Source: Botryllus schlosseri (Eukaryota). From it: 64,000 bases of DNA. The translations under genes and the position numbers were made by a program. The DNA is taken from assembly GCA_051294905.1 (NCBI GenBank), contig CM119372.1:14138001-14202000 (forward strand), in the 5' to 3' direction. Position 1 is the first letter of the stretch; the number at the start of each line of letters is the position of its first letter. The notes beneath the pieces were generated by a model that saw only the letters and a list, made by a program, of their open reading frames with translations, did not search any database and was not told where the DNA came from. This document shows positions 30,411-61,882 of the stretch, one piece after another.

Positions 30411-33400
30411 ATGTCATCTGCTGCACTGTTGATGAAAGTTGTTGCGTCCTCCGTACGTGCTGCGGATAAAGCAGCAGAACTTGTGAGGAAAATTATGAAA
30501 GGAGGTGATCTGGGGATAATCGACAAGGTGCGGTAGCTTACATTGATAAAGAATCAATAGAGTCAATTCTCTTCCTCGTTGCTAAGCCTACCTTGCCAAA
30601 CTATGAATGCTTAAATCCATTAATGCACGATGCATGACTTCCAGGGCGGCTTGAACAACTTTCAAACAGAAGCAGACAGGTCTTGTGAACGGTTAATCCG
30701 TGCGACACTTGCTGCACAATATCCCAATCTTAAAATCATCGGAGAGGAAGATGAAGCAGCGGACGCGAGCTCGGACGCCAAATCTGGAATGGATGACGAT
30801 GTGCTTTCCAAAGCCTGCCCCGAAAGTCTGAAAGATGTCAAAGAAGAACAGGCAGGAGTTCTTTCCGTCCATGTTACTTTGATATTCAGAATTGAACAAT
30901 TTATCTGTGCGCGGGTCAAGATAGGCACTTGCTATTATGCAATTTCTAATCTCGAAAAGCGATATCATTGTCACCAATTCTGCACCGCTGCTTGAACAAA
31001 GTAGAGCGGAGTGAGATGCTTCAGACACTTTGGCTCAAGAATTGAGTATAATACGGTGCAAAGATGTGGCAAGTATCTAGATTTGATCCCAACTCTGGTT
31101 ATACTTGCCCAAAGTCAAGTCGACTCTGCAGGAATAGTTCAAAATCCGTAGCTAAACTACTCCAGATGTGACTCCTAGTCATGAATGCTGTGACGAATAT
31201 TGATTCATAAAAGGATAATTGATTGGAATTCAGTCGCAAACATTAAAATTTGCGATATTTACTGTGGAAAACGGCTAACATACTGTATCCCGTTTAGGGC
31301 ACGGTGGTGACCAGAAGGGGTGTAAGAACTAAGAAGTACTCAGGTAGAAGTAATGCTGCAAATTTCTACTCAAATACAATAAGAAATAGTGATTTCTAAG
31401 ACATGTCAAACTTCAAGTGGAAGAAGAACATGAAGATTTGAAGACAACTCTAATGAGTAGTTTCAGAGAGTAGATATGGTCCACACATGAGTCGTCTAAT
31501 ACTTTTAAGAGCTGATCGAAGGTGGTTACTTTAAAAATTGCAGGGTGCAAAACGCAAAATGACTAATGCCACTACAAATTGGTGCAATTTTTGAAAATAA
31601 ATTCAATTACTGTGATGCACAGGCTATTTCATCCAGTAGCTAAGACATTCATAAACGTGATGAAACATGTCCCTAAACTAATTTGTACTTTATTGAATGC
31701 TAAGTGTAAAAGTGAAGTAGTTTTGTGTACAAAATGGTAGGTAGAAGTGGAAGTAGTCAAAAATCGTAATCACTTCTTGAGCAAGTAGTGCAAGTAGGCA
31801 AAACTTACTTGACTACACCGAAAATGTAGAAGTACTTTATTACTTGCCATCTCTGGTGGTGACACTCAAAAATTCACATATATCCTAGTGAACTTTGCCA
31901 TAAATTGAAGTTGCAAACTTTTGGGCCCTATGATATTCCTCAAGTATGTATGAACTATCAATGCAGTTCACTGCATACAGCAAGACCCAAAGTCTGATGT
32001 AAGACATTGTGTCATGTTCTGCATGCACTACAATGTGTAACTGATGTATAAGTGCAGTTAACATATTTGCTTGTAACTAAACCGCTGGTATTTTCTTTTT
32101 AGATCGTTGTATGGGTGGATCCTTTAGACGGGACTGCTGAATTTACACAAAGTAAGCCTTGAATTTCATGGAATACCGGTACTCATATTTATTGCCCATA
32201 ACATTGTTTGCATACTGTCTCTTGCAGATCTCTTAGACCATGTTACAGTACTGATTGGAATCGCTGTCGACGGCAAAGCTGTAGCTGGAGTCATAAACCA
32301 ACCATTTTACAATTACAAAGCTGGCCCGGATGTGAGTTAACTCTTGTTTTATGTTTGGTTTCCCAGAACTTCGATATACCAGATCAGTACTGTGCAAACA
32401 AGTTGTGCAAACAGGTACTAGCTGCACGTTTTATCGCCAAACATTGTCGGTGACCTACCTACAAATATTTCATGAGCATGGAACGCTTTAGCATATGTCA
32501 CTTCAGCATGTGACTTTATAACCCAAAAACTAACCCGAAACATAACCCTGAAATTAACCCCTAGATATATCCTAACCCCAAGTCCTACCCTAACCCAACC
32601 CTAACCCACACGCTCATGTGTCGCATTCCCAATTGTCGCATCCTATAATGTCACATGTCCACGGACCCAATATTTCACTAAAAATAATGGCATTTTATAC
32701 AATAGCCTACTCACTGTGAGGAAAATCCTATGTGTGAAGTTGATCAGATAGGTCTGCCAAATACCATTAGTTTGTGTATGTGGTAAGGGAAGCGGCCCAT
32801 ATAACTTGGTGTGGCATGTCCTGCATTGATTTGTGGTATGTTTAATATGTGTGTGTCTTCAAGAATTGATTCAAGCATTCGTAAAATTCATGGTGTTTTG
32901 GGTCATCCCATACCTTGGTGCACCAGTACTTGTATCAATGTATAAATATTTTTTCCCTGTATATGACCATAATGCTCATCATTAACATGTCTGTGTTTTT
33001 CTGTTGTTTAAGTAGGCAGTGAATTTAAGACCTTCTATCCCTATTAAACTGACCCCGAGTGTTAGGTGACAATGTTGGGATAATCCGAATCTGGACTCGA
33101 GTTACTGCCTTAATATGACTGAACTTGATTGGGTCCATTCATCAGATATTCTACTTCGTAAAACCTTGTGATTAATACCAATCGTATATTTACTGAATTA
33201 CATTTCCATTCAAGTTTTTATTTATTTTGCAAAGACAAGTAAATTTTGGTCTTGAACTCAACCCAGAAGCATGTTATCTCTGACCTCTGCAAACAAGCAG
33301 CAATCTGTTTCGCCTTTTCTAATTCCATCGCTCTGTGAGGCTGGATTTTCCGCCGTCTATATGGTTAAAGTAAGTAGGCCTATACGTGATCCATCTTACT

Positions 33401-38628: not shown

Positions 38629-41243
38629 CAGGGCCGTAACAGCACTTCGTCAGACCCCCCCCCCCCCCCAACAAAAAAAAACGTCATTGGTCTTGGGCCC
38701 CCATATGATGATAACCGTACTTCTGGGGGTCTTCGCGCTTTACCGCTACTTATCATCTACATTGGGGTGCGTTTACTGAGTCCATTTATCTCGTCTAAAC
38801 GCGCGAAGCGCGAAAATTTTCTGTAATTCATGATGGAATCGGTCAATATGATCGGGAACTGCATTTATATTGCTAGCAATTTTTGTCCCCTCTCTGCTCA
38901 CGTAATCAAATTTACAGGTAGAGCTGATTGAGGTGTGTTTGAAAAGGTAGGACCCCTCAATAATAATTAAACATCTTCGGGCGTATACCCGTTGGCAGGA
39001 ACGAAACAGCACTTCGTCAGGCCCCCCCAAAAAAAACTTGGGTCTGGGGCTCCCATAGGGTGATAAACCTACCCCCAATCACGTTCGCTTTTGCCACGAA
39101 ATCAGTTGTACTGTTTAGTGAGCGAAGCGCGACAATCTTCGATAATTCATGATAAAATCGGTCAATAAGATCTGGAATTGCATATCAATTGCTATCAATT
39201 TCTTGTCCTCAGCTCTGCTCACGTAATCAGATTTTCCGGTAGAACTGAGCGAGCTGCCTTGGAAACTGTAGGGCCCGTTGGTATGACTCCGTAACATGCT
39301 GTTATTTCGAGATCTCCTGTCTGCTATATCAAAAATATAGAATCGCCCAAACGTGTGCTACTAAACCAAAAGACGCACCAGATTTTAAATTAGTATTTCT
39401 TCACTGGCCTCTAATTTTACCCTGCGGGATGATGTTTGTCGTGCGTGATTCAGATTGCCTGGACAGGAACATTCGGTGCCAGTCATTTAGGCACCTATGG
39501 ACACTTAAACCTATTATATGTATTTTGTATATTTATAACAATCAGGACCGTAACTGCCGCACCCCAAATCCCCCAATTGGGGGGGGCGAGCTCAAAGGGG
39601 GCCCAAAATTATTTCGTGAATTAGCATAAATTATAGAGTATTTTTTGAAAATTTATGCAGCTTTTTCAAAAAATTTTCGCGCTATCCGCGCGATTTCAAG
39701 TTCCCGAATATCTTCATTATTGTGTAGCCTACTCTTCACCCAAAATATACGCAAGATTTATAGAAATGAGCATATCGGCGTTGGCCATTACCGCGCCACG
39801 ACGCACCAAGATATAAAGTTTTAGGCAATGTAACATGCGACCCCAAGAGGTTTGCCAGAACGATCGCCAACGAGAAAACCTTGACCGAAAAGGACTGCGC
39901 TTATGCTGATACATATAGGTTTAATTGTCCATAGGCGCCTAAATAACTGGCGACAAATGTTCCTGTCTTGGCAATCTGAACCTCACAAGACAAATACCAT
40001 CTCGCACGAAAAAATTATATGCCGGTGAAGAAATACCAATTTGAAATCGTGTGCGTCTTTTAGTTTAGTACGTTTATGCGATTCTTCATTTTATGATATT
40101 GCTGAGGTCACGAAATAACATCATGTAACGAAGTCATACCAACGGGTCCGCCCGCTCGAAAATGTTTAATTATTATTTACGGGCCCTACAGTTTCCAAGA
40201 CACCTCAGTCAGCTCTACCGGTAAATCTGATTACGCGAGCAGAGAGGACCAGAAATTGATAGCAATATATATGCAATTCCCGATCTTATTGACCGATTTT
40301 ATTATGAATCATCGAAAATTTTCGCGCCTTGCGCGTGCTCACTAGAGAGTACAACTTATTTCGTGGTAAAAGCGACCAACGTGATGGGGGGGGGAGTCCG
40401 TTTATCACCCTATGGGAGCCTAAGAGCCAAGTTTTTCGGGGGGGGCTGACGAAGTGCTGTTTCGTTCCTGCCAACAGGCATACGCCCGGAGATGTTTAAT
40501 TATTATTATTATTGAGTGGTCCTACCTTTTCAAACACACCTCACTCCGCTCTACCGGTAAATCTGATTACGTGAGCAGAGAGAGGATAAAAATTGATAGC
40601 AATATATATGAAATTATCGATCATATTGACCGATTCAATCATGAATTATACAAATTTTTCGCGCTCCGCGCAGTTAGCCGTGAAAATCTCACTCAGTAAA
40701 CGGACACCCACTAAAGATGATAAGTATAGCGGTAAACTGCATGCGTATAGCCTGAGGGGGGTCTGGGGGGCGAAGCCCCCCATAAGTCCATTTTATAACC
40801 CTATGGGGGGCCCAAGGCCAACGTTTTGGGGGGGGGCTGACGAAGTGCTGTTACGGCCCTGATAACAATGTCTTCGGTCCGCATAAGGGCACAGTCCTTT
40901 TCGGCCAAGGTTTTCTCGCTGCCGATCGTTCTGGCACACTTCTTGGAGTCGCATGTTACATGGCCTAAAACTTTATATGTCTTGGTGCATCGTGGCGCGG
41001 TAATGGTCAACGCCGATATGCCGATTTCTATAAATCTTGCTTATTTTTTCTTGGGAGAAGAGTACCCCCAAATCAAGATATCTTGCAATCTGAAATCGCG
41101 CAGAGCGCGAAAAATTTTTGAAAAGTTGCATAAATTTTCAAAAAATACGCCATAATTTATGCTAATTCACGAAATAATTTGGGGCCTCCTTCGAGCTCGG
41201 CCCCCCCAATCGGGGGGTTTGGAGTGCGGCAGTTACGGTCCTG
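38629..41243. mobile_element. hAT-like element (CAGGGCCGTAAC / CAGGACCGTAAC family), outer copy
   Basis: Ends CAGGGCCGTAAC / GTTACGGTCCTG; perfect TSD GTCACATT. Confidence 0.88.
39543..40861. mobile_element. Same-family copy nested in opposite orientation
   Basis: Ends CAGGACCGTAAC / GTTACGGCCCTG; perfect TSD ATAACAAT. Confidence 0.9.
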
Positions 41244-42940: not shown

Positions 42941-44036
42941 GCTTATAATTGACGGACGTCAAGTTTTATGAGTCGAATTTATCCTTTTTTGGTAATGATG
43001 AAACCTGATCAAGGTGAAAATATGGCACTGTCTGAATTCAGATTATAAGCAGAGGTGGTCAGTAACGAAGTACTTGTTCAAAGTACTCAAGTAGATTTCC
43101 TCTATTTCTGGTACATACTCAAGTAGGTCTTTTTTCGCTACTTTTACTTCGTATATTTTGTGAACTACTTACTTACTTTTCGCTATCTTCAGTTTGTCAA
43201 GTACAAGTAGTTTAATCCCCCAATAAGAAATATAGGCTAAGGAATTTTGGGGCTGTTGTCACGTAGTACCAAACCAACACATAATTTTCATAAAAGTCAT
43301 GTAATACGCAGAATTTTCGTTGCGCTTCGCGCACAGTAGATATGGAGTGACAAATATGTTTCAACCAAAGTATCGCTGAATATAATTTAGATACTGGGCG
43401 GCTGCGTGGTTCCGTTCACACCGCATTGTCGCCTGTATCAAATATTTCATCACAGTAAGTATGGTCCCCCATAACATTTGAAACTACAGTATCGCAATCT
43501 AGCAATTACCTATTATACCTAGCAGCCCATGACGTGTCCTAATCTGAAAAAGTGAACTTTGACTTTTAACGTTAGACCTGTTTTGGCAGACTACCGTTGA
43601 AACTAATTGAACAAAAGACATGAAATATCTTTTCCGCTTTTTAGAACTAGTATTCGTATTTTTCTTTCAATTTACGAGTATTATACGTTGAGTTCTAATT
43701 ATAGTTTCAGTTCTTTTGTCTGGAGAACATACATGTTGAAGTATAAAAGCAAGTGTAGTGATGCCGTATATTTTCCGAGAATAAAGCTATACACTATATG
43801 GGATTTTTACAATCTGTCATACTTTTAATTGACGTATACTAATCGTGCAAAGTGTTAAAGCCGTATCCGATACAACTTCTCTTCGGCTGAACTAGAGGCC
43901 GTATAATATGGGGGAGGGCGCCATGCCATGATATTCTCTAAAACGGGGTGTTCGAGTAAACAAAGAATTAGTATCGCATTTCCATATCAATCCCACGATG
44001 TTTACGACGGCTTATTCTGTCAAAAACTGACACCTC

Positions 44037-47000
44037 AGTAGTAGTATACGGGTCATTTATACCCCCACCAATAGTCATCGAGTATTTGATCACGTGACAT
44101 CTGTTAGCCAATTAGAATGCAGAACGAAGTGGGCGTGGTTCCAATACGAGAGAGGTTTGGGTTGTGCGAGAGATGGCATAGTTCCAGTCCAGTAACGCTG
44201 AGATATTTATTACGTCATGCTTGCGTAAGTTGATTACCTTCAATATGATTGCGTATTGCAGCATGTTCATGATTACGTCATATGCGTAGTTGATTACTTT
44301 AGTTATTTCGAGAGCGTCTTTGCTTAGTTCCAGTAATGCTGAGGTATGATTACGTCATGATTGCGTCTAGTTCCAGTCCAATAACACTGAGAAATATTTA
44401 CGTCATTATGATTGTGTAGTTGTTCATGTTCATGATTACGTCATATGCGTGGTTCCAATACGAGTGAGGTTTTGGTTGTGTGAGAGATGGCATAGTCCCA
44501 GTCCAGTAACGCTGAGATATTATTACGTCATTATTACGTAGGTTGATTACCTTCAATATGATTGCGTATTGCAGTTAAAGCATGTACAGTATTGATTACG
44601 TCATATGCGGAGTTGATTACTTTAGTTATTTCGAGAGCGTGATTGTTTAGTTCCAGTAATGCTGAGATATGATTACGTCATGATTGCGTCTAGTTCCAGT
44701 CCAATAACACTGAGAAATATTTACGTCATTATGATTGCGTATTGCAGTTGAAGCATGTTCAGTAATGATTACATCATATGCCTAGTTGATTACTTTAGCA
44801 ACGCTGAGATATGATTACGTCAATATTGCGTTGATTGCCTTTGTTATTGCAGTTGAAGCAAGTGCAAGGCAATATATAACGTGTAATATTTATTACATGA
44901 TTATTCGCTGTACGCTGTAGATTGAATATGTCAAAGATTACTGCTAATGATATATACGTCATAATAGATCGTATTGACCCGATGAACTGGTACATGATTT
45001 CAATGATTATTAAAAATAATTTTAATAATATTGTTTATGAATTCGTTTGAATACGTTCACTGTTATAATCTATATGATTTCAATGATTATTAAAAATAAT
45101 TGAAATAAATCTCACAAAGTAATAATATAAAATTTGGCTAATATTGTGAATATCTAATAATCGTGAAAATAGCAAGTATCTCATGTTGATGAAAAAAATC
45201 AGCCCACGTTGTTAGAGAACCAAAACATGATTTTAATATGTTTTAAATATTCCATTTTTTAAAAATATTATTACATTGGTTCTAACTTTGGAATAATAAT
45301 TATTATATTGTTTTCATTATTCATCGAAATCATTGTCGCTTATAACGGTGAACATCTTTTTAATAATATTGTTGCTTTGTAAATATCTTATTGATTTTAG
45401 TTAAATTATCGATTATCTTGTGTTGTTGATGAATTAGTTTGTACAAAAGACGTTCACTGTTATAATCTACATGATTTGAATTTTAATAAAACAATTTTCG
45501 GTTTATTCGCAATCATATGCTCATGTATGCGAAACTGGTATTGCTTTTACATCGCAAATCTAAAAAGGGATTCTAATATCGAGAAAATGTGCCAGGATCC
45601 CAAGGGAGCTCTATGCGTTGTTCTGAACGATTAGTAAATGTCGAGAAAGTATGTTAGGATCTCAAGGGAGCTCTACGCGTTGTTTTGTTGTGAATATGTT
45701 ATCATTGCGAAATTAGCAATTATTTCGTGTTGTTGATGAAAATATTAAGCTTACGTTGTTATAAGCACCAAAACATGATTTAAATATGTTTAAAATATTC
45801 CAGTTTTTAAATAATATTACTTTGGTTCTAACTTTGGAATAATAATAATTAATATTAATAATATTTTTTCAATATTCATTGAAGTCATTGTAGCTTATAA
45901 CGGTGAACATCTTTTGTACAGCAAGCTCCAAGTTTAATTAGAATTAGAGCAACACAAAATTCCAACACCTCGCAACTCTCATGACAGTGCATCGTATCAT
46001 TACACAATATTAAACTTCATTCAATAATCAACATTTAATTGTGACGTCATAAATTCGTATTTTGAATTTTTTGTGATGAGATGAGATTGTTTGATATGCA
46101 AGTCGCGCATGAAGCAGATCTGTCCACCCTGTACTATAGTAATGTGTTAAATGTGTACTCAAATGTATATTGTGAATAAGACCAGTTACGATCCAGCTAC
46201 CGTGTTTGTTAACCCATTGTGAAATGTCTGACGCCATATCTTCACCGTCACACTTATACTCAACGCGAACGCTATATTGTAGCTTAATTTCTTTATGTAG
46301 TACGTGCAAACATATGATGTGTCTCTCTCAATTTACTTTCAAAATTCATATGATACAACAGCATGGACTCTGAATGCCACTTGCAACATATGTATATGTA
46401 TTTGTATGATAATATTAGTAACAGCTGGCCTCTATAGGGAATTAACTGAATACATTCTTTGCCGATGGATAGTGTCGCAGTACCTTACCGTATGCACTAC
46501 AAAACGCTATCATTTTACAGTATTAATGAGACACAAACCAAAGTAAAATTAACAAAAAATTGACTAATATTATGAATATCTTATGATTTTGAGTTAAATT
46601 AGCCATTTTCTTGTGTTGTTATTGTTTCACTATCACTGATTATTCTAATAATATTGTTGCTTTGTGAATATCGTATCAATTTTTTGTTAAATTATCAATT
46701 ATCTTGTGTTGTTGATGAAAATAATTCGCTTGTATAAAATACGTTCACTAATATAATCTACAGGATTTCAATGATTATTAAAAAATAAGCTAATGCAAGT
46801 TTCCAGAATGCTGATGCTGGCTATGCTATTGGAGCCTTTTCAAATAGAATACGCAGTACGATTATCGATGGTGGATGCAAAACAATCCTAATTCTCAACA
46901 AATTTTAATTGTCTCGGAATCATACCTATTGCGATATCAACTCTCCGCATTTTGTTGTATTTAGGGCTATTGCACAAGCTATCTCTAATATGCTGCAATA

Positions 47001-50000
47001 TAGACAGGTTCAAACTTGTCTAGGGTATTCACTTCCCGTCAACTAGCTTTTCAAGACGCATTAATAAGCGCGCGTATTTAATTACCTAATCGTTGGATGA
47101 ATATTCCTGGCAGGCATAGATGTCCCCAGGGAACCGAGCTAACTTCGCTTCTATTCTTTTTACATTGTTTGCAAAGCACGGGTATTTTGTGATTCCATTA
47201 GACTTCAATGGTTCTAGAATACTAAATTAATGAGAGTTGAATAAACCGTCAATTAATTTAGCATAAAGCATATGATATTCATATTACTTAGAGCTTACGT
47301 CGTTGAACAACCCTGATATGATCATACAGCGAAAGTATAGCCCTAAATAGCGGTAATATCTCCCAAGCATAAAAATAACGTGGTCGGAATGTACGTTTAT
47401 TGCAAATTTATCTCTAAACAGAATGATCTGTAGCTTGTCGCATTCGAATTACTGAGCAGAATTGACATAGAACTATTAAGCAAAGCTGAAACATCTTCAC
47501 TTCAGTTATCATTCCCTTGAGACTACTAGTTATAGCAGAGGCAGACAAACTGTGATTTGCGGTTGTAGCACTTCAATGATTTCATGTGCGTTTCGCCATA
47601 TTGTTAAAGAAGTTTAACCTGATTATATATTAATGCATTTATAGCGTATTAGCAATATGCGAATGGTGGCTGTGGCGCTACAGGGTTCAAAATTAGCAAT
47701 TGAACTCTCGAATTGAACCCGATCATCAATCAATGACAAATCATTGTGCTCAACGCTATTTTTATGTGGTTCATTGATTCACAACTTTTACTGATCCACA
47801 AAGCACTTACGTTAGTCTTAAAACCTTCGCTGAACCACAAATTTTCGCTGAGTCATAAAACAAAAAATCTGGCAAAATATACATTCAACTACACATCTAA
47901 TTCTTTACTATAGTACAGGAGTGGGCAGAGCTGCTTCTTGCGCGAGTCGCATATCAAAAATCTTATCTTTAAAAGAACCACAACACAAAAATCCAACATA
48001 TGGATTTATTACGTCTCAAGGAAATGTAGGCTATCGAATGAAATTTATTATTGTGTGATGATAGGATGTGCAATTGTGCATACACGAGGGTTCTAATTCC
48101 AATCTAATTTGGAAAAACTATGTAGCTCTAAGTCAAATTCTAATCTAGTTCTATTCAACCTGTTTCAGTTACACACGCTTTTCAGAGACACTGCGAGCTT
48201 CACGGATTTTTAAATTTTCAAAATTAGGATTGATCGATAAATATGATACTATTTATCACTTGTATAAATATCACTGTGATATCAATCCAAGCTTATGCGG
48301 CTTTGTAATAATTGGTTGTTTAGCAAAATCAATATTATGCTCAAATTATATCAGATATCGCATTGAATATAGCTAATCAAATTTTTATTACATATTAGTA
48401 GCTGCAGTCGGATTTCAACATAACGACCAATTCCGATGCACATGCTACGTTTTCGAAACGACTACGTTACTATTCGATAGCTGGACATATCAGTATTGTC
48501 TTCTAATGACTCGAGTCATTACAATCCTGCTAATGGATTTCTAATTTAAACTTTGACTTGGACTTATCGATCAAGTAGGTAGTGGGGGTACCTGGTTTTG
48601 TTACCAGCCTCGAGGCTATATTCTTTGGCAGCGATGAGGCTATTTATGTTCATCGCTCAGCACTTGACTATGGCGATGTGTATTTAGCACTGTGTATTGA
48701 TAATTACTTGCTTCCGAGAAATAAATAACATTCATTATACGTTAGATGATACTTTCCACAGATATTCTATTATGTGTCTTGAGACTACAGCGAGTTGATA
48801 ATATTAATGCGTACACTTTCAAGAAATAAGGACGTTGCTAACATTCAGATTTTGCGTAAATTTCGCGTGATCAACTATGTACGATTTTTGTGTATTTCAG
48901 ACTATGTATGTTCATGTTCACGAAGACTGCGGTATCGCATGGATAAATGCATCATCGCTAATAAATTACTTGAATGCGACTCGATAACATTTATCCCTTG
49001 TAACGTACTCAAACATGATATTAGGTGTATTTAAGACTATTTATGTTCCTGAGATCTTTGATAGCGCAATGATTCGGTATGATTTCTATATTATTCCACT
49101 CTCGTTATTGGACTGCGGTGTGACGCTGAACCTATCTCGATGCCCGGGCTTCCGCATTAACTTTTTTCGATTTCTTCTGCCTTATGTAGATTTAACATAA
49201 GGAAAGTTATTTCACTCATAAAATTTGAAATACGTATTTGCTCGAGTTAAAGCCATAACGCTTGGAGTGAAATTTTACGAGGTTTTCGTTAATATTCAAC
49301 TGGGCTAATTTCGAAATGTAAATTGAAAAACTCAAATATCGCATAGTAGGACTTCGCAAATTTTCGATATATTTTTGCTATTTTTTCATGGTGACAAGTC
49401 ATTCGGAACGGTGAAATGCATTATAGGAAATAGATGAAACTGGTTCAATTCATCAAGACCCCTGAAAAAAGTACATTGGATTTCAACATTTTATTAGCAG
49501 GTAATCGAAATACCACAAACTGGGCTAACCTTCGGAGTTGTTAAGTAAAGAAGTACTCGTACTTCTTCGGAGTACCCAATACTCTCAAGTCCTTATTATA
49601 TTGGAGTGTTTCAACTTCATGATAGTTATAGTATTAAGCAGAAATATACCTGGAGTACTAATGTTTTACTTACTAGGAAATGACTACTTCTGTCTTATTT
49701 TAAAGGATTCCTCGCTCGACGCGAAATTTTATTAGGTTTTGAATAATATCCAACATGTAGGTTCACTTTGAAGGGTACTTCGTAAAACTCAAATATTGTA
49801 CAGTGAGAGCTCGCAAATTCTCGATGTATTTTTTGGTATTTTTATTGCGGTAAGTCATTCTGCAGCGCGAAAATGCATCGTAGGATATAGATGAAACTGA
49901 CACCGCTCACCAAGACCACTGGACCACTGAAAAAGTACATTTCAACATTTTAGTAGCAGTAAATTCCTAGTAAAGTATAAGAAGTGATGATTTCCGAGTG

Positions 50001-53000
50001 AGTTAAAAAGTAAGTATTGAAGGTATAGTTTGGTCGAAAACCGAAAACTCTGAAATAGAAGTAGATGCAGTGTAAAAAGTTAATCACTTGATTAAGTATA
50101 GCGCAAGCGGACCAAACCTATACTTGAGTACTCCAAAATGTACAAGTACTTCGCTATGGACTCCCTCCACGTAAAAAGTGACTAGGTTTTAGACTACTTT
50201 ATCGGTACTTGACAGTTTCAGTTTTAGATAAAATTTGGAATAAAAACTAGCTCATTCACTCACTTGGAAATCTCTTCTTTAACCTGTACTTGAGCGTAGC
50301 AAGTAAATCTCATTTATTATTAATTCTACACGTACACTTGACCATATTTTATGACTTACATAATTACTTTTCACTATATTTGAAGTCAAGTCTGTCAAAT
50401 AGCAGTATATGTTACGATGAGCTTATATTCGTTCTGTTTGATCATCTTGACTAACGATATTCACGCGGCGAGCTCTCCAGTGATAGCCTTGGGACTTGGA
50501 ACAGTGTTATATGACATCATAGCGACACGAGGTTACGACAGTTTAGAATTAGCTACCTTACGACACCAAATTTCGTTAGTTCATCTCCACCTTCAAATAT
50601 TGTGTTATACAAATATAGTGTATACGCAACAAATACATATATGGCTTTGTTGCTGCAATCTTCAAAAAAAGTACTTCCCTCAGTAAGCAATTTCTCGTAG
50701 GCTATGCATATGCATACAAACGAGGACAGTTACATCAATGAGTGGTACCTTGTTGTATTAAGTAGCTAGTAATTAGTGCATGTAAGTCCGCAGCTACTGT
50801 TCAAGACCTTTTACGCGTTTTTGCCAAGCATCCTCGTAAGGACAGACAGTCCCAATCAGCTAATGTAAGTGTGTGTGTGTAGGCCTATGTATGTATGAGG
50901 GGTCTTATGCCGGTTGACGAATGAAGTTGGTCGTCTATTCTATTCCGAAATAATCAAGTTAGTGGTTTTTAACAGGACCTGACCTCATAGAAACTTCAGT
51001 AGAATAACTTATAACTCCTCATGTTTACTCAAGTAAATCTAATTTGATAATCATGTACTGAATCTTAATTTTCAAACGAGTTCAAATTTAACTCTAACTT
51101 ATGAGATTAAATATAATAACTTTTCACGTTGCAGCGTATTTTACAGCATGAGCCAAGTGATTTCATAATTAACACAAGATAATTAAATGAATTTCTAGAG
51201 GATTATAAGATATTCGTGTCATCCTCCTTCGTATATCATAAAAGAATACCTACTGCAGTCGATTTGTAATTATTTGCGCTGTGTTTGATCAACTCAATCA
51301 TGTTGCAGTGTTTTAATAACGAAACTCTTTTACAGCATAAACCAAATAATTTCATAATAAACACAAGCTAATTGAATGAATTTACTCAAATGTAGTATAC
51401 CGCGCTGATGAGATTAATTATAACATACTTATCATGTTACAGTGGTTTTTCAATAACTAAACTCATTTACAGCATAAGCAGAGTAATTTCATAATAAACA
51501 TAAAATAACTGCTGTCGATGATTTGTACTAATTTGTGGCGTGTACAATTAACTCAAGCAGCTCTAAAACATAGGAAGCAGGGCGATGGGTATTCGTTGAG
51601 TTGAATAAATATAAAAAATATTTCCGCGCCCTTCTAGGTTGTAGGGTTAGGAATAATTAGGTTTAGTAGGGCGCGGAAATATTTTTTATGTTTATTCAAC
51701 TCAACGAATACCCATCGCCCTGCTTCCTATGTTTTAGAGCTGCTTGAGTTAATTGTACACGCCACAAATTAGTACAAATCATCGACAGCAGTTATTTTAT
51801 GTTTATTATGAAATTACTCTGCTTATGCTGTAAATGAGTTTAGTTATTGAAAAACCACTGTAACATGATAAGTATGTTATAATTAATCTCATCAGCGCGG
51901 TATACTACATTTGAGTAAATTCATTCAATTAGCTTGTGTTTATTATGAAATTATTTGGTTTATGCTGTAAAAGAGTTTCGTTATTAAAACACTGCAACAT
52001 GATTGAGTTGATCAAACACAGCGCAAATAATTACAAATCGACTGCAGTAGGTATTCTTTTATGATATACGAAGGAGGATGACACGAATATCTTATAATCC
52101 TCTAGAAATTCATTTAATTATCTTGTGTTAATTATGAAATCACTTGGCTCATGCTGTAAAATACGCTGCAACGTGAAAAGTTATTATATTTAATCTCATA
52201 AGTTAGAGTTAAATTTGAACTCGTTTGAAAATTAAGATTCAGTACATGATTATCAAATTAGATTTACTTGAGTAAACATGAGGAGTTATAAGTTATTCTA
52301 CTGAAGTTTCTATGAGGTCAGGTCCTGTTAAAAACCACTAACTTGATTATTTCGGAATAGAATAGACGACCAACTTCATTCGTCAACCGGCATAAGACCC
52401 CTCATACATACATAGGCCTACACACACACACTTACATTAGCTGATTGGGACTGTCTGTCCTTACGAGGATGCTTGGCAAAAACGCGTAAAAGGTCTTGAA
52501 CAGTAGCTGCGGACTTACATGCACTAATTACTAGCTACTTAATACAACAAGGTACCACTCATTGATGTAACTGTCCTCGTTTGTATGCATATGCATAGCC
52601 TACGAGAAATTGCTTACTGAGGGAAGTACTTTTTTTGAAGATTGCAGCAACAAAGCCATATATGTATTTGTTGCGTATACACTATATTTGTATAACACAA
52701 TATTTGAAGGTGGAGATGAACTAACGAAATTTGGTGTCGTAAGGTAGCTAATTCTAAACTGTCGTAACCTCGTGTCGCTATGATGTCATATAACACTGTT
52801 CCAAGTCCCAAGGCTATCACTGGAGAGCTCGCCGCGTGAATATCGTTAGTCAAGATGATCAAACAGAACGAATATAAGCTCATCGTAACATATACTGCTA
52901 TTTGACAGACTTGACTTCAAATATAGTGAAAAGTAATTATGTAAGTCATAAAATATGGTCAAGTGTACGTGTAGAATTAATAATAAATGAGATTTACTTG

Positions 53001-56000
53001 CTACGCTCAAGTACAGGTTAAAGAAGAGATTTCCAAGTGAGTGAATGAGCTAGTTTTTATTCCAAATTTTATCTAAAACTGAAACTGTCAAGTACCGATA
53101 AAGTAGTCTAAAACCTAGTCACTTTTTACGTGGAGGGAGTCCATAGCGAAGTACTTGTACATTTTGGAGTACTCAAGTATAGGTTTGGTCCGCTTGCGCT
53201 ATACTTAATCAAGTGATTAACTTTTTACACTGCATCTACTTCTATTTCAGAGTTTTCGGTTTTCGACCAAACTATACCTTCAATACTTACTTTTTAACTC
53301 ACTCGGAAATCATCACTTCTTATACTTTACTAGGAATTTACTGCTACTAAAATGTTGAAATGTACTTTTTCAGTGGTCCAGTGGTCTTGGTGAGCGGTGT
53401 CAGTTTCATCTATATCCTACGATGCATTTTCGCGCTGCAGAATGACTTACCGCAATAAAAATACCAAAAAATACATCGAGAATTTGCGAGCTCTCACTGT
53501 ACAATATTTGAGTTTTACGAAGTACCCTTCAAAGTGAACCTACATGTTGGATATTATTCAAAACCTAATAAAATTTCGCGTCGAGCGAGGAATCCTTTAA
53601 AATAAGACAGAAGTAGTCATTTCCTAGTAAGTAAAACATTAGTACTCCAGGTATATTTCTGCTTAATACTATAACTATCATGAAGTTGAAACACTCCAAT
53701 ATAATAAGGACTTGAGAGTATTGGGTACTCCGAAGAAGTACGAGTACTTCTTTACTTAACAACTCCGAAGGTTAGCCCAGTTTGTGGTATTTCGATTACC
53801 TGCTAATAAAATGTTGAAATCCAATGTACTTTTTTCAGGGGTCTTGATGAATTGAACCAGTTTCATCTATTTCCTATAATGCATTTCACCGTTCCGAATG
53901 ACTTGTCACCATGAAAAAATAGCAAAAATATATCGAAAATTTGCGAAGTCCTACTATGCGATATTTGAGTTTTTCAATTTACATTTCGAAATTAGCCCAG
54001 TTGAATATTAACGAAAACCTCGTAAAATTTCACTCCAAGCGTTATGGCTTTAACTCGAGCAAATACGTATTTCAAATTTTATGAGTGAAATAACTTTCCT
54101 TATGTTAAATCTACATAAGGCAGAAGAAATCGAAAAAAGTTAATGCGGAAGCCCGGGCATCGAGATAGGTTCAGCGTCACACCGCAGTCCAATAACGAGA
54201 GTGGAATAATATAGAAATCATACCGAATCATTGCGCTATCAAAGATCTCAGGAACATAAATAGTCTTAAATACACCTAATATCATGTTTGAGTACGTTAC
54301 AAGGGATAAATGTTATCGAGTCGCATTCAAGTAATTTATTAGCGATGATGCATTTATCCATGCGATACCGCAGTCTTCGTGAACATGAACATACATAGTC
54401 TGAAATACACAAAAATCGTACATAGTTGATCACGCGAAATTTACGCAAAATCTGAATGTTAGCAACGTCCTTATTTCTTGAAAGTGTACGCATTAATATT
54501 ATCAACTCGCTGTAGTCTCAAGACACATAATAGAATATCTGTGGAAAGTATCATCTAACGTATAATGAATGTTATTTATTTCTCGGAAGCAAGTAATTAT
54601 CAATACACAGTGCTAAATACACATCGCCATAGTCAAGTGCTGAGCGATGAACATAAATAGCCTCATCGCTGCCAAAGAATATAGCCTCGAGGCTGGTAAC
54701 AAAACCAGGTACCCCCACTACCTACTTGATCGATAAGTCCAAGTCAAAGTTTAAATTAGAAATCCATTAGCAGGATTGTAATGACTCGAGTCATTAGAAG
54801 ACAATACTGATATGTCCAGCTATCGAATAGTAACGTAGTCGTTTCGAAAACGTAGCATGTGCATCGGAATTGGTCGTTATGTTGAAATCCGACTGCAGCT
54901 ACTAATATGTAATAAAAATTTGATTAGCTATATTCAATGCGATATCTGATATAATTTGAGCATAATATTGATTTTGCTAAACAACCAATTATTACAAAGC
55001 CGCATAAGCTTGGATTGATATCACAGTGATATTTATACAAGTGATAAATAGTATCATATTTATCGATCAATCCTAATTTTGAAAATTTAAAAATCCGTGA
55101 AGCTCGCAGTGTCTCTGAAAAGCGTGTGTAACTGAAACAGGTTGAATAGAACTAGATTAGAATTTGACTTAGAGCTACATAGTTTTTCCAAATTAGATTG
55201 GAATTAGAACCCTCGTGTATGCACAATTGCACATCCTATCATCACACAATAATAAATTTCATTCGATAGCCTACATTTCCTTGAGACGTAATAAATCCAT
55301 ATGTTGGATTTTTGTGTTGTGGTTCTTTTAAAGATAAGATTTTTGATATGCGACTCGCGCAAGAAGCAGCTCTGCCCACTCCTGTACTATAGTAAAGAAT
55401 TAGATGTGTAGTTGAATGTATATTTTGCCAGATTTTTTGTTTTATGACTCAGCGAAAATTTGTGGTTCAGCGAAGGTTTTAAGACTAACGTAAGTGCTTT
55501 GTGGATCAGTAAAAGTTGTGAATCAATGAACCACATAAAAATAGCGTTGAGCACAATGATTTGTCATTGATTGATGATCGGGTTCAATTCGAGAGTTCAA
55601 TTGCTAATTTTGAACCCTGTAGCGCCACAGCCACCATTCGCATATTGCTAATACGCTATAAATGCATTAATATATAATCAGGTTAAACTTCTTTAACAAT
55701 ATGGCGAAACGCACATGAAATCATTGAAGTGCTACAACCGCAAATCACAGTTTGTCTGCCTCTGCTATAACTAGTAGTCTCAAGGGAATGATAACTGAAG
55801 TGAAGATGTTTCAGCTTTGCTTAATAGTTCTATGTCAATTCTGCTCAGTAATTCGAATGCGACAAGCTACAGATCATTCTGTTTAGAGATAAATTTGCAA
55901 TAAACGTACATTCCGACCACGTTATTTTTATGCTTGGGAGATATTACCGCTATTTAGGGCTATACTTTCGCTGTATGATCATATCAGGGTTGTTCAACGA

Positions 56001-59000
56001 CGTAAGCTCTAAGTAATATGAATATCATATGCTTTATGCTAAATTAATTGACGGTTTATTCAACTCTCATTAATTTAGTATTCTAGAACCATTGAAGTCT
56101 AATGGAATCACAAAATACCCGTGCTTTGCAAACAATGTAAAAAGAATAGAAGCGAAGTTAGCTCGGTTCCCTGGGGACATCTATGCCTGCCAGGAATATT
56201 CATCCAACGATTAGGTAATTAAATACGCGCGCTTATTAATGCGTCTTGAAAAGCTAGTTGACGGGAAGTGAATACCCTAGACAAGTTTGAACCTGTCTAT
56301 ATTGCAGCATATTAGAGATAGCTTGTGCAATAGCCCTAAATACAACAAAATGCGGAGAGTTGATATCGCAATAGGTATGATTCCGAGACAATTAAAATTT
56401 GTTGAGAATTAGGATTGTTTTGCATCCACCATCGATAATCGTACTGCGTATTCTATTTGAAAAGGCTCCAATAGCATAGCCAGCATCAGCATTCTGGAAA
56501 CTAGCATTAGCTTATTTTTTAATAATCATTGAAATCCTGTAGATTATATTAGTGAACGTATTTTATACAAGCGAATTATTTTCATCAACAACACAAGATA
56601 ATTGATAATTTAACAAAAAATTGATACGATATTCACAAAGCAACAATATTATTAGAATAATCAGTGATAGTGAAACAATAACAACAGAAGAAAATGGCTA
56701 ATTTAACTCAAAATCATAAGATATTCATAATATTAGTCAATTTTTTGTTAATTTTACTTTGGTTTGTGTCTCATTAATACTGTAAAATGATAGCGTTTTG
56801 TAGTGCATACGGTAAGGTACTGCGACACTATCCATCGGCAAAGAATGTATTCAGTTAATTCCCTATAGAGGCCAGCTGTTACTAATATTATCATACAAAT
56901 ACATATACATATGTTGCAAGTGGCATTCAGAGTCCATGCTGTTGTATCATATGAATTTTGAAAGTAAATTGAGAGAGACACATCATATGTTTGCACGTAC
57001 TACATAAAGAAATTAAGCTACAATATAGCGTTCGCGTTGAGTATAAGTGTGACGGTGAAGATATGGCGTCAGACATTTCACAATGGGTTAACAAACACGG
57101 TAGCTGGATCGTAACTGGTCTTATTCACAATATACATTTGAGTACACATTTAACACATTACTATAGTACAGGGTGGACAGATCTGCTTCATGCGCGACTT
57201 GCATATCAAACAATCTCATCTCATCACAAAAAATTCAAAATACGAATTTATGACGTCACAATTAAATGTTGATTATTGAATGAAGTTTAATATTGTGTAA
57301 TGATACGATGCACTGTCATGAGAGTTGCGAGGTGTTGGAATTTTGTGTTGCTCTAATTCTAATTAAACTTGGAGCTTGCTGTACAAAAGATGTTCACCGT
57401 TATAAGCTACAATGACTTCAATGAATATTGAAAAAATATTATTAATATTAATTATTATTATTCCAAAGTTAGAACCAAAGTAATATTATTTAAAAACTGG
57501 AATATTTTAAACATATTTAAATCATGTTTTGGTGCTTATAACAACGTAAGCTTAATATTTTCATCAACAACACGAAATAATTGCTAATTTCGCAATGATA
57601 ACATATTCACAACAAAACAACGCGTAGAGCTCCCTTGAGATCCTAACATACTTTCTCGACATTTACTAATCGTTCAGAACAACGCATAGAGCTCCCTTGG
57701 GATCCTGGCACATTTTCTCGATATTAGAATCCCTTTTTAGATTTGCGATGTAAAAGCAATACCAGTTTCGCATACATGAGTATATGATTGCGAATAAACC
57801 GAAAATTGTTTTATTAAAATTGAAATCATGTAGATTATAACAGTGAACGTCTTTTGTACAAACTAATTCATCAACAACACAAGATAATCGATAATTTAAC
57901 TAAAATCAATAAGATATTTACAAAGCAACAATATTATTAAAAAGATGTTCACCGTTATAAGCGACAATGATTTCGATGAATAATGAAAACAATATAATAA
58001 TTATTATTCCAAAGTTAGAACCAATGTAATAATATTTTTAAAAAATGGAATATTTAAAACATATTAAAATCATGTTTTGGTTCTCTAACAACGTGGGCTG
58101 ATTTTTTTCATCAACATGAGATACTTGCTATTTTCACGATTATTAGATATTCACAATATTAGCCAAATTTTATATTATTACTTTGTGAGATTTATTTCAA
58201 TTATTTTTAATAATCATTGAAATCATATAGATTATAACAGTGAACGTATTCAAACGAATTCATAAACAATATTATTAAAATTATTTTTAATAATCATTGA
58301 AATCATGTACCAGTTCATCGGGTCAATACGATCTATTATGACGTATATATCATTAGCAGTAATCTTTGACATATTCAATCTACAGCGTACAGCGAATAAT
58401 CATGTAATAAATATTACACGTTATATATTGCCTTGCACTTGCTTCAACTGCAATAACAAAGGCAATCAACGCAATATTGACGTAATCATATCTCAGCGTT
58501 ACTAAAGTAATCAACTAGGCATATGATGTAATCATTACTGAACATGCTTCAACTGCAATACGCAATCATAATGACGTAAATATTTCTCAGTGTTATTGGA
58601 CTGGAACTAGACGCAATCATGACGTAATCATATCTCAGCATTACTGGAACTAAACAATCACGCTCTCGAAATAACTAAAGTAATCAACTCCGCATATGAC
58701 GTAATCAATACTGTACATGCTTTAACTGCAATACGCAATCATATTGAAGGTAATCAACCTACGTATTAATGACGTAATAATATCTCAGCGTTACTGGACT
58801 GGGACTATGCCATCTCTCACACAACCAAAACCTCTCTCGTATTGGAACCACGCATATGACGTAATCATGAACATGAACAACTACACAATCATAATGACGT
58901 AAATATTTCTCAGTGTTATTGGACTGGAACTAGACGCAATCATGACGTAATCATACCTCGGCATTACTGGAACTAAGCAAAGACGCTCTCGAAATAACTA

Positions 59001-59263
59001 AAGTAATCAACTACGCATATGACGTAATCATGAACATGCTGCAATACGCAATCATATTGAAGGTAATCAACTTACGCAAGCATGACGTAATAAATATCTC
59101 AGCGTTACTGGACTGGAACTATGCCATCTCTCGCACAACCCAAACCTCTCTCGTATTGGAACCACGCCCACTTCGTTCTGCATTCTAATTGGCTAACAGA
59201 TGTCACGTGATCAAATACTCGATGACTATTGGTGGGGGTATAAATGACCCGTATACTACTACT
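44037..59263. mobile_element. 15,227-bp fully palindromic non-coding element with Polinton/Maverick-like termini
   Basis: Position i pairs with 103300-i from the termini to the centre; arms 44037-51632 and 51668-59263; termini AGTAGTAGTATACGGG / CCCGTATACTACTACT; perfect 6-bp TSD CACCTC (44031-44036, 59264-59269); mirrored short ORFs in the ORF track; no ORF over ~93 aa. Confidence 0.85.
44134..44880 (+). repeat. Subterminal tandem array (~314-bp period) built from TTACGTCA-containing subunits; mirrored at ~58420-59166
   Basis: CGTGGTTCCAATACGAG at 44134 and 44448; ten TTACGTCA octamers counted. Confidence 0.85.
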
Positions 59264-59304
59264 CACCTCCTTGGATGAAGTAATATGAATCAAGCTCTCT
59301 ACAC

Positions 59305-60802
59305 CAGCGGTTCTCAACCGGGGGTCCGCTGACCCCTAGGGGTCCGCGAAGCAATTTCAGGGGGTCCGCGAGACCTCTAAATTTTTTAAATGGTTGATAA
59401 CCTAATTTTTATTTTATTTTTTATTTTGAGAAAGCATGAGGCAGTTTCGCACCACAACTGCTAAAATCTCATGACTCATATCATCATCATAATCGTCTGA
59501 CATGAGCTATCGTTGCGTGGAAATTCATTTTCATTGCTCATTTTCCAATAACCTGCTGATACAAACATATTGCTGTTTAGAGACGTTTTGTTGGGGTTTG
59601 GGGATAAAATAAAAATATGGAGATAGTAACGTCAATAAGGGTGACGTCGTTAATGTCTGCAAAACCTTCTCGATTTGAAGTTGTCTTGTCAGTCTCATCA
59701 AATTAGTGAACATGAACAGTCGTTTGAAATGAAGATCTCCGAAATGTTTCCCTAATTTTTCCCAATGCAGGGATTGAAGCCTCGCCACGCGAAATCCATT
59801 TTATCCTGTGATATACCGCATAACCACTATTGGAACAGTTTATTGGAGTTACAGAACTTGAATATACAATTGAAAAGTATATACATATTGAAATGACAAG
59901 GCTATCGACGGCTGACACTCGTCATAAATCGGACAATGATATACCTGCTCTTAAAGCTCGGCTATTAGTCAGATTTGGCGCATTCTTATCGCGGATGCCC
60001 TATCGACAAGGCTGTTTTTTTAGGAACAAGGAGTGTTTCGTTGCTATCAAAGCATTACGCTCCAGCCCTGAAATTCATATCACCAGTTATATTGGTATGC
60101 AGCCTTGTTTTGTTAATGTTCAATTGTTCATGGTCGAAAATGTTTGCTGGTCAATATATATGTAAACCCGAACAGAACAAGTTGTTTCATAACAGGCTTT
60201 CTAAGGTTAGAAAACTTGAATCCATTCTTTGGCGAATGAAACTTGTCTATGCTTTTAGATTAGGATTTCACTTTGACGGTAGAAACTCTCTGCGGGCCGA
60301 TCAAAATGCCGTCGCGGACCGAATCCGGCCAGCGGTTCGTATGTTGCCCGTCCTTACGGTAGATGCTGGGCGTGATATGTTCATAAAATATATGTTTCCT
60401 CATTTTGGTGCCATAAATGTTGCGATTACACCAAAAGTATCATCGGAAGCGTTATGCGTTAATATTGAATTAGCCGCCATCTATATTTGTGGAAATGGTT
60501 TTTGGCACTACTCGTTCATATCAAAACGAAGACGAGGATTTCCAAGACACGACCACGTACTTCAAGAAATACATAAGCAAAATTAGCTTCGAAATAATAA
60601 AAGTCTACCAATTTCTACATAGATAGTATGATGTTATTTTCAAGAAAAATCATTTATTTTGCTGTTTCTCACAAGCCTCGAGTTCATATTTGCACAAAAC
60701 AGATGAAGGTTGCACCATAATTGAACTAAAACTTGAGGGGGTCCGCGAGGGTCCGTGACGGTCATAAGGGGTCCGCGAAGCCAAAAAGGTTGAGAACCAC
60801 TG
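59305..60802. mobile_element. hAT (Charlie-like) non-autonomous element with transposase debris
   Basis: TIRs CAGCGGTTCTCAACC / GGTTGAGAACCACTG; perfect TSD CTCTACAC; GGGGTCCGCG subterminal repeats; minus-strand remnants YHRIKWISRG (~59790) and LVLFGFTYI..QTFSTMN (~60150). Confidence 0.9.
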
Positions 60803-61882
60803 CTCTACACCTTCCGCATAGCTCCATTTGCAGCTTTTTATAGTTCATGCGAACGAATTACGATCGTTTTCACAACTACTTACTTACTTGAGTAGATTTT
60901 AAGTCAGTCAATTCTACTTCTACTTCAAGTAGTTTTAGGTTGCTTATGAAATAAGTACTTCTACTTGTACTTGAGTAGATTTTTTCATCGCTACTTCTAC
61001 TTCTACTTGAGTAGCTTTCTTGACTACTTTGACCACCTCTGGTAATAAGCTCATGATAGATCAGAGAGATTTGCTAAGACGTGTTCTTTTCCAATTCTCA
61101 AGCTTGCCTGGGCTTGATAGCAGTCCTGCTCGGCGCTCGCATAGGCATAGGCTATATAATTTTGACGTATAAGCATACAGCAATCATCTCGAAAAACTGC
61201 ACATGGATAGTGGATACATGGTAATTTGATTTCAGGATATTCTCCAATCAGAAGTTCGTTACTGGATAATCAGTCCATTCCGTGAAATTTCCAAGCATGA
61301 AATGATTAAAGAGTCATGTATATTGCAGAACCATTTTGCGCTCACGCCAAAGCTCAATATCTGTTACTATCAATCGTTCTGGATGGACAATTGGAAATAT
61401 ATAGAAAAACTCCCCATGGAGTTGGGTTGATTTTTTCCTCATTGCCCCTCCCGGTTTATATTTATTAGAAAGCACTTTCAGTGCCGTGACAAGTGTGGCA
61501 ATGCAGTTTTCAAATACACACTTGTCTTCCTGATCTATGAAGAGAAATGAACTGCCGTGGACTTGACATTCACAATTACAAATTACAAACAACGCCTTAG
61601 CTATCCACGTTCTTGATTAGGAAGTAGTTTTGTAGTATCACTGTCAAAATGTATAGGCGTGTAGCGCAACGTTGTGTTACCGACGAAGAGGCCAACATTG
61701 AGAATTGAGAAGTCGTTCAGTCATCCTGGCGACAGGTGAGGCACTGCCTCACTTGCCTCCCCTGACCCCACGTTACTGTCGCATCACACCTTACGGTGGG
61801 TAAGTACTGCTGTAATGACTATGTTTAGGAGCTTAGCTCCACCTACACCTCGGCTCCTCGCATTTAAAAAGAGCATCAAGAC

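What the first reader, a model, noticed from the sequence alone, without database searches (positions are those of the whole stretch)
51590..51710. Palindrome centre: short asymmetric TAGG-rich spacer and local mismatches suggest a pre-existing short inverted repeat primed the fold-back
The centre is AAAAAATATTTCCGCGCCCT-[TCTAGGTTGTAGGGTTAGGAATAATTAGGTTTAGT]-AGGGCGCGGAAATATTTTTT. There are mismatches at 51610/51690 and 51633/51667, whereas the neighbouring arm stretches I compared are identical. Large palindromes seeded by a short IR with a small spacer are established (Tetrahymena rDNA, IR-primed amplification in yeast and mammalian cells). The spacer has telomere-like TAGGGTTAGG and resembles the reverse complement of the TAACCC tract at 32519-32610. 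A small host repeat may therefore have supplied the hairpin, or this may be a dedicated hairpin/resolution site.
Basis: partly seen in the sequence, partly recalled or inferred. Interest (0 to 1): 0.72.

Follow-up and report, generated by a model that had tools for sequence, protein, structure and literature searches.

The report
Fold-back tip of giant palindromic transposon
This short stretch is the turning point of a 15-kb mirror-image, gene-less mobile element with Maverick/Polinton-type ends, and it looks like the ordinary scar left where one DNA strand folded back on a 12-letter inverted repeat and copied itself, not like a dedicated cutting site.

Summary
The sequence is as described. 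It is the centre of a real 15,227-bp gene-less palindrome (44037-59263) with (AGT)n//(ACT)n ends and a 6-bp target duplication, which a paralogous empty site confirms. This scan has reported such Maverick-ended palindromes many times on other DNA of this genome, with loops up to about 1 kb and centre-deleted copies (unchecked notes). The centre is a 59-bp cap: 12-bp GC-rich arms around a 35-nt spacer. The spacer is truly telomere-like, but it shares only composition with the 32519-32610 tract. In contigs of 4 of 4 runs the arm segment beside the cap also occurs with another neighbour, and the match ends exactly at the cap's outer edge. In the two runs where placement was unambiguous the contigs fit the right-arm letter, so the 51610 mismatch is probably a later point mutation. 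Best reading: fold-back priming at a short (8-15 bp) inverted repeat, like known yeast junctions, with the spacer kept passively. A family-wide resolution site is unlikely. The cap was not seen outside a palindrome, but no genome was held to test this.

The parts
44031..44036 (+). Left 6-bp target-site duplication (CACCTC)
   Evidence: a paralogous empty site at window 1277-1282 carries one copy
44037..51632 (+). Left arm (7,596 bp) of the gene-less palindrome; starts AGTAGTAGT (Maverick/Polinton-type end motif)
   Evidence: end motif as in PMC8097293; 0 Pfam families in 6 of 6 frames; longest stop-to-stop frame 100 aa; no Rfam match
44133..44741 (+). Subterminal 323-bp tandem duplication; ten TTACGTCA motifs start between 44210 and 44815
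51139..51511 (+). Three diverged internal repeat units just outside the centre
51584..51620 (+). Arm segment next to the cap; in other copies it is joined to sequence like 50190 onward, so it is not centre-specific. Holds the private mismatch 51610/51690
   Evidence: joint 50190-51680 in 4 of 4 runs; orientation fixed for X12 by depth arithmetic
51621..51632 (+). 12-bp GC-rich left arm of the central cap (TTTCCGCGCCCT), candidate pre-existing priming IR
   Evidence: the 59-nt cap folds at -13.9 kcal/mol; no exact copy elsewhere in the window
51633..51667 (+). 35-nt asymmetric spacer, degenerate TTAGGG-like (11 G, 1 C); 27 nt fully unpaired
51668..51679 (-). 12-bp right arm of the central cap
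51668..59263 (-). Right arm of the palindrome; ends ACTACTACT
59264..59269 (+). Right 6-bp target-site duplication (CACCTC)

Best explanation
The centre is the one-time fold-back junction that made, or remade, this palindrome. A linear non-autonomous Maverick/Polinton derivative carried a short foreign piece: a 12-bp GC-rich inverted repeat (8-15 bp with the tip pairs) around a degenerate TTAGGG-like tract, probably from a small host repeat. During strand-displacement copying or break repair a 3' end folded back on this repeat and copied the arm out to the terminus, giving two identical Maverick ends. A helper integrase then inserted the dimer with a 6-bp duplication. The spacer is passive: it survives because it makes the palindrome less fragile and nothing has to cut there. 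The displaced strand can snap back into a hairpin duplex whose open end is again a protein-priming origin. Shown: palindrome, ends, TSD with empty site, no genes, cap anatomy, shared arm sequence ending at the cap edge. Inferred: that the 12-bp IR pre-existed, its host origin, the fold-back step, helper replication and integration.
For: Clean insertion with Maverick end motif and 6-bp TSD. The arms are identical over 4,812 bp, yet this copy's letter is the minority in run X1 at 21 of the 29 variant columns shown for 50260-51574, and both arms carry it at all 29 (the table showed 40 of 249 rows). So one arm was recently copied from the other, if the assembly is right. Joint 50190-51680 in 4 of 4 runs (depth 108, 35, 19, 156; shorter side 29, 31, 32, 19 letters) starts at the first base outside the 12-bp core. 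For X12 the depth of the last two bins (5.86, 4.09) matches a contig covering 51680-51711 (5.66, 4.09). The 59-nt cap folds at -13.9 kcal/mol, whereas the inner 8-bp stem alone is not predicted to form. Known junctions look like this: a 5-bp IR with a 35-bp spacer in wild-type yeast, and reduced Mre11 activity on hairpins with spacers over 12 nt (PMC10622511); 5-6-bp IRs with 40-80-bp spacers (PMC10766186); longer spacers lower fragility (PMC7999016). The window's other TTAGGG-like tract also lies between short inverted repeats (8 bp, 32507-14 and 32650-57).
Against: The cap was not found outside a palindrome: no exact core elsewhere in the window and 0 hits in viral, metagenome and prokaryote collections, which are the wrong places for an animal repeat. 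After a fold-back every arm base is a mirror copy, so a 12-bp IR cannot be told from an 8-bp or shorter one, and stems with 7 of 8 pairs and a 20-40-nt spacer fall in 67 of 745 10-bp bins of the arm. The joint sides are 19-32 letters at 85% likeness, the range the tool warns about; X5 and X12 reach 31-32. The tool's tables were cut and the call cannot be repeated. The uneven arm mismatches (8 in the outer 2.76 kb, 0 in the next 4.81 kb; P about 0.001) are not explained by one fold-back followed by even decay. They need later conversion or an assembly effect.
Confidence: 0.5

Rival explanations
1. Secondary central deletion. The parent already had long arms around a larger loop, like the roughly 1-kb loops reported for other family members. 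Breakage at the centre and end-joining removed most of the loop, and the 35 nt are what is left of it.
For: Earlier notes describe 1-kb loops and centre- or loop-deleted copies of 9.3 and 12.4 kb in this genome (unchecked). Secondary end-joining at palindrome junctions is described (PMC10766186, passages; the center-break paper was seen as a title only). One X1 contig (depth 8.8) has a joint 51638-51670 that on either reading holds at least 30 of the 35 spacer letters with a changed tip. The outer arms carry more mismatches than the inner arms, as if of two ages.
Against: Deletion alone does not explain 4.8 kb of identical inner arms that share this copy's minority letters, nor a stable GC-rich stem exactly at the edge of the shared sequence.
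Confidence: 0.25
2. Dedicated hairpin or resolution site. The cap is a selected element, cut or processed at each cycle like poxvirus concatemer junctions or protelomerase targets (both recalled, no call), so the element lives as a hairpin-ended 7.6-kb monomer.
For: The spacer is compact and strongly non-random. Single contigs suggest the cap is not private to this insertion: X13 joint 50012-51716 with at least 46 letters on each side reaches into the core on a shorter arm, and X1 holds the spacer with a variant tip.
Against: Other family members are reported with other centres (unchecked). In X12 the spacer has almost no cover although the arms do (a hole proves nothing). The element encodes no enzyme. 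Strand displacement from two protein-primed ends yields the hairpin form without any cut (inference).
Confidence: 0.1
3. Long pre-existing inverted repeat: a small host element with imperfect arms of 27 bp or more, whose old mismatch at 51610/51690 was carried through the fold-back.
For: One mismatch within 23 bp of the stem end next to 4.8 kb without any: chance 0.03 (mean rate) to 0.06 (outer rate). Depth near 51680-51750 is raised in X1 and X13 (depth is no copy number).
Against: The segment holding the mismatch occurs in 4 of 4 runs as a one-sided piece with another neighbour, placed on the right-arm letter (no contig fitted two places in X5 and X12). [quoted passage not shown]
Confidence: 0.1
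4. Assembly or library artefact: the palindrome, or the perfect identity of its inner arms, comes from fold-back chimeric reads or from polishing with reads that map to either arm.
For: Mismatches survive only near the unique flanks and beside the unique spacer, which ambiguous mapping would also produce (inference). No listed contig spans the stretch.
Against: Both outer junctions continue a host repeat whose empty paralogue has a single target hexamer; a chimera would not create a TSD. Many independent loci of this build are reported (unchecked). The doubt therefore concerns the mismatch pattern, hardly the element.
Confidence: 0.05

Closest known systems
Maverick/Polinton elements (vertebrate survey PMC8097293; nematode Polintons 10.1101/2023.08.22.554363; passages read)
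   Same: (AGT)2//(ACT)2 end motif, 6-bp TSD, size within 12.7-24.6 kb.
   Different: Inverted repeats of 7.6 kb instead of 46-1,447 bp; the whole element is a palindrome; none of the core genes was found.
IR-primed fold-back inverted duplications (yeast DSB fold-back PMC10622511; ODIRA junctions PMC10766186; passages read; Tetrahymena rDNA seen only as titles in a reference list)
   Same: Giant identical arms around a short IR with a 35-nt spacer; the spacer length lies in the range seen in nuclease-proficient cells.
   Different: Here the product is a mobile element with integrase-type ends and not a chromosome rearrangement; the parent molecule is not known.
AAV snapback defective genomes (PMC8235507; passages read)
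   Same: A self-complementary, helper-dependent genome that keeps only one viral end, duplicated; symmetric form with almost no loop.
   Different: AAV uses Rep and hairpin priming at ITRs. This element has protein-priming-type ends, is 15 kb and is integrated in a germ line.
DINE-1/HINE non-autonomous Helentrons (PMC4067079; passages read)
   Same: 12-15-bp subterminal repeats, a short IR close to the 5' one, short microsatellites and a preference for T-rich sites are a possible model for the origin of the cap.
   Different: DINE-1's IR lies 3-22 bp from the subTIR, not 35; the paper does not mention telomere-like tracts (0 hits for 'telomer'); no second end or further copy of the cap was found.

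Membership tests
Maverick/Polinton | (AGT)2//(ACT)2 or (AG)3//(CT)3 end motif | tested here: met
Maverick/Polinton | 6-bp target-site duplication | tested here: met
   CACCTC on both sides; empty paralogous site with one copy
Maverick/Polinton | Terminal inverted repeats of about 50-1,500 bp around a unique interior | tested here: not met
   arms 7,596 bp, interior 35 nt
Maverick/Polinton | pPolB, integrase, ATPase, protease, capsid genes | tested here: not met
   0 Pfam families in 6 of 6 frames read with X at stops; longest frame 100 aa
Non-autonomous Maverick derivative | Ends shared with an autonomous Maverick in the same genome | not testable with these tools
   no genome held; claimed by earlier notes for other copies, not checked
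IR-primed fold-back junction | Short IR with small asymmetric spacer at the axis of near-identical arms | tested here: met
IR-primed fold-back junction | The same IR and spacer present in a non-palindromic parent | tested here: inconclusive
   not in the window or in public viral, metagenome and prokaryote scans; the adjacent arm segment does occur in another context; host genome not searchable
Dedicated hairpin/resolution site (poxvirus- or protelomerase-type; features recalled) | Centre conserved across the family | tested here: inconclusive
   single contigs in X1 and X13 suggest sharing within a subfamily; unchecked notes report other centres
Dedicated hairpin/resolution site (poxvirus- or protelomerase-type; features recalled) | Flip and flop isomers of hairpin-ended free DNA | not testable with these tools
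   only contigs were served; for fully symmetric arms the isomers are not distinct
HINE/DINE-1 (Helentron) origin of the cap | Paired subTIRs, 3' stem-loop, dispersed copies in TT sites | tested here: inconclusive
   only one 12-bp IR, no second end, no further copy in the window

The most novel reading that the evidence does not exclude
The 59-bp telomere-like hairpin cap is a reusable module: a host-repeat end that, once inside a Maverick derivative, makes the helper polymerase fold back and so founds whole subfamilies of snap-back satellites. These would alternate between a hairpin-capped 7.6-kb free form and the integrated 15-kb palindrome, a natural germ-line counterpart of snapback defective genomes for protein-primed virus-like elements.
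Probability: 0.15. Interest if true: 0.75.

Novelty: new variant of a known kind. Interest (0 to 1): 0.4.

Why it matters
The junction itself is of a known type. Its value lies in what it says about the family: fully palindromic, gene-less Maverick-ended elements were not described in the papers my searches listed, and their centres record how each was born. With hundreds of copies reported in one genome, a catalogue of centres would directly test fold-back priming against central deletion, and would test the still indirect model of protein-primed, panhandle-type Polinton replication. It would also show how a germ line tolerates 7.6-kb arms with a 35-nt spacer, a structure that is fragile in yeast and mammalian cells.

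Tried and rejected
Whole-genome search: no genome is held for this window. Pattern scans for the IR with spacer, the spacer, the adjacent arm segment and the terminus gave 0 hits: viral contigs 4 of 4 scans, metagenome contigs 2 of 2, prokaryote genomes 1 of 1. These collections are not expected to hold an animal repeat, so this is no evidence of absence. Earlier-finding look-ups by place near the finding, by sequence, by relatives and by words returned nothing. No coding remnant (Pfam), no Rfam match to E 0.5 over 44000-52000, no promoter or terminator consensus (a bacterial scan of little relevance). Spacer as a copy of the intron tract: rejected as unproven. Spacer as fresh telomerase addition: unlikely, only 10 letters match (TTAGGG)n exactly. 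A two-tier G-quadruplex pattern is present but was not pursued. My first idea that joint 51373-51696 (X13, one contig) is a microhomology deletion was dropped: the tool gives no shared letters and the orientation is open. Low cover of the spacer in X12 and raised depth beside it in X1 and X13 are not used as copy numbers. Of 20 runs listed, 4 were laid.

Full report
1. Observation. The quoted centre is exact. It is the axis of a 15,227-bp palindrome, 44037-59263. The arms pair on one diagonal without indels for 7,596 bp, with 9 mismatches: eight between 44340 and 46797, none in 46798-51609, one at 51610/51690. The spacer is telomere-like beyond chance. It is the only one of 103,266 38-nt strand-windows in 1-51671 with five TAGG, and it and the tract at 32587-32607 are the only 9-letter or longer matches to (TTAGGG)n in the window. 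That does not make them homologous: 181 of 2000 dinucleotide shuffles of the tract align to the spacer as well as the tract does. The tract lies in an intron after a BPNT1-like exon, between 8-bp inverted repeats.

2. The element. It starts AGTAGTAGT, ends ACTACTACT and is flanked by CACCTC on both sides. Both flanks continue a host repeat that has a second copy at the start of the window, and there the target hexamer occurs once (1277-1282), so this is a clean insertion. End motif, 6-bp duplication and size fit Mavericks/Polintons (PMC8097293, passages). The repeat length (7.6 kb against 46-1,447 bp) and gene content do not: 0 Pfam families in 6 of 6 frames, longest stop-to-stop frame 100 aa, no Rfam match. 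The host is an animal, to judge by the BPNT1-like exon and an intact L1/Tx1-type element (the subgroup label is recalled). I had this reading before the first look-up. Earlier notes of this scan describe many such palindromes on other DNA of the same genome, some with loops of about 1 kb holding a small gene, some centre-deleted (unchecked). They gave me the lead to PMC8097293 and the central-deletion rival.

3. What other copies say about the centre. No genome is held. Of 20 runs listed I laid the contigs of 4 on 49700-51750 at 85% likeness; the tables were cut (40 of 249 difference rows, 15 of 21 joints) and the call is capped at one. (a) The inner arm is multi-copy and polymorphic. At 21 of the 29 shown columns in 50260-51574 the window's letter is the minority in X1, yet both arms carry it at all 29. 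If the assembly is right, one arm was copied from the other after this copy diverged from its relatives. (b) A joint 50190-51680 appears in 4 of 4 runs (shorter side 29, 31, 32, 19 letters). Depth arithmetic for X12 shows the contig covers 51680-51711 (expected 5.66 and 4.09, observed 5.86 and 4.09); X5 is compatible but has extra cover. So the arm segment beside the centre also occurs with another neighbour, and the match stops at the first base outside the 12-bp core. (c) These contigs were placed on the right arm, and in X5 and X12 no contig fitted two places, so they fit the letter at 51690; the letter at 51610 is probably private to this left arm. (d) Two single contigs suggest the cap is not unique. 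X13 has a joint 50012-51716 with at least 46 letters a side, which reaches into the core on an arm 1,571 bp shorter; X1 has the matching same-strand joint 50012-51584, with only 25 letters on its shorter side. X1 also has a joint 51638-51670 that on either reading holds at least 30 of the 35 spacer letters with a changed tip. (e) In X12 the spacer has almost no cover, which proves nothing, since records are filtered. Short sides at 85% likeness are the range the tool warns about.

4. Mechanism. The simplest account is fold-back priming. The 59-nt cap folds at -13.9 kcal/mol; the inner 8-bp stem alone is not predicted to form. Known junctions have the same build: wild-type yeast used a 5-bp IR with a 35-bp spacer, and long spacers reduce Mre11 activity (PMC10622511, passages); ODIRA junctions are 5-6-bp IRs with 40-80-bp spacers (PMC10766186, passages); spacers lower fragility (PMC7999016, passages). 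The lone 51610 mismatch has a chance of 0.03-0.06 by the arm's own rate. How long the original IR was cannot be read from the product: stems with 7 of 8 pairs and a 20-40-nt spacer occur in 67 of 745 bins of the arm. A resolution site is not needed (inference): with protein-primed origins at both ends the displaced strand snaps back into a hairpin duplex whose open end can prime again, much like AAV snapback genomes (PMC8235507, passages). Flip and flop are not distinct for arms that are symmetric to the ends, except relative to arm SNPs.

5. What does not fit. Mismatches are uneven: 8 in the outer 2.76 kb, none in the next 4.81 kb (largest gap P about 0.001; 14 expected at the outer rate). 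This needs a later arm-to-arm conversion, a younger inner fold-back within older arms, or homogenisation during assembly. The cap was not found outside the palindrome, so its host origin is unproven. A HINE/DINE-1-type end is a model only (PMC4067079, passages).

6. Known or new. The junction type is known. A fully palindromic gene-less Maverick derivative was not described in what my searches listed: 16 papers, listing and abstract starts; 4 papers; 0 papers; passages of PMC6431247 and of the nematode Polinton preprint showed none. The library lacks most subscription papers and repeat databases, and I read no supplements, which may list such elements. Tetrahymena rDNA and center-break papers were seen as titles only; poxvirus and protelomerase features are recalled. 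The family has been reported repeatedly by this scan.

7. Verdict. Observation confirmed, interpretation partly supported. Fold-back at a short IR 0.5, central deletion 0.25, dedicated site 0.1, long old IR 0.1, artefact 0.05. Interest 0.4: an ordinary junction inside an unusual element, useful mainly as one data point for a genome-wide catalogue of centres.

Noticed in passing
window 13480-18014 (+): Apparently intact non-LTR retrotransposon: 413-aa frame with zf-CCHC and 1,116-aa frame with endonuclease, RT and zf-RVT matches; L1/Tx1 label recalled.
   Followed up: partly
window 59305-60802: 1.5-kb insertion with short terminal inverted repeats and an 8-bp duplication (CTCTACAC at 59297-59304 and 60803-60810), 35 bp from the palindrome's right target duplication, in the same host repeat; hAT-like label recalled.
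   Followed up: partly
window 44210-44822: Ten TTACGTCA motifs near the terminus of each arm, against 6 on both strands in the 48.8 kb outside the palindrome; they resemble ATF/CRE sites (recalled) and may be host-factor sites of the Maverick-type end.
   Followed up: no
window 44037-51632 vs 51668-59263: Arm mismatches are confined to the outer 2.76 kb plus one beside the centre; 4.81 kb are identical (P about 0.001). Unexplained: conversion tract, two ages, or assembly effect.
   Followed up: partly
window 32230-32331 and 32507-32657: BPNT1-like exon; the next intron holds a degenerate TAACCC tract between 8-bp inverted repeats, possibly a small Helentron-type repeat.
   Followed up: partly
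window 49838-50251: Part of the arm with about 10-30 times the contig depth of the neighbouring arm in all four runs; many joints lead from 50232-50249 to the inner repeat units, so the family's arms are modular.
   Followed up: no
window 38739-41243: Nested, diverged (about 85%) inverted repeats of several hundred bp, probably older foldback-type elements.
   Followed up: no
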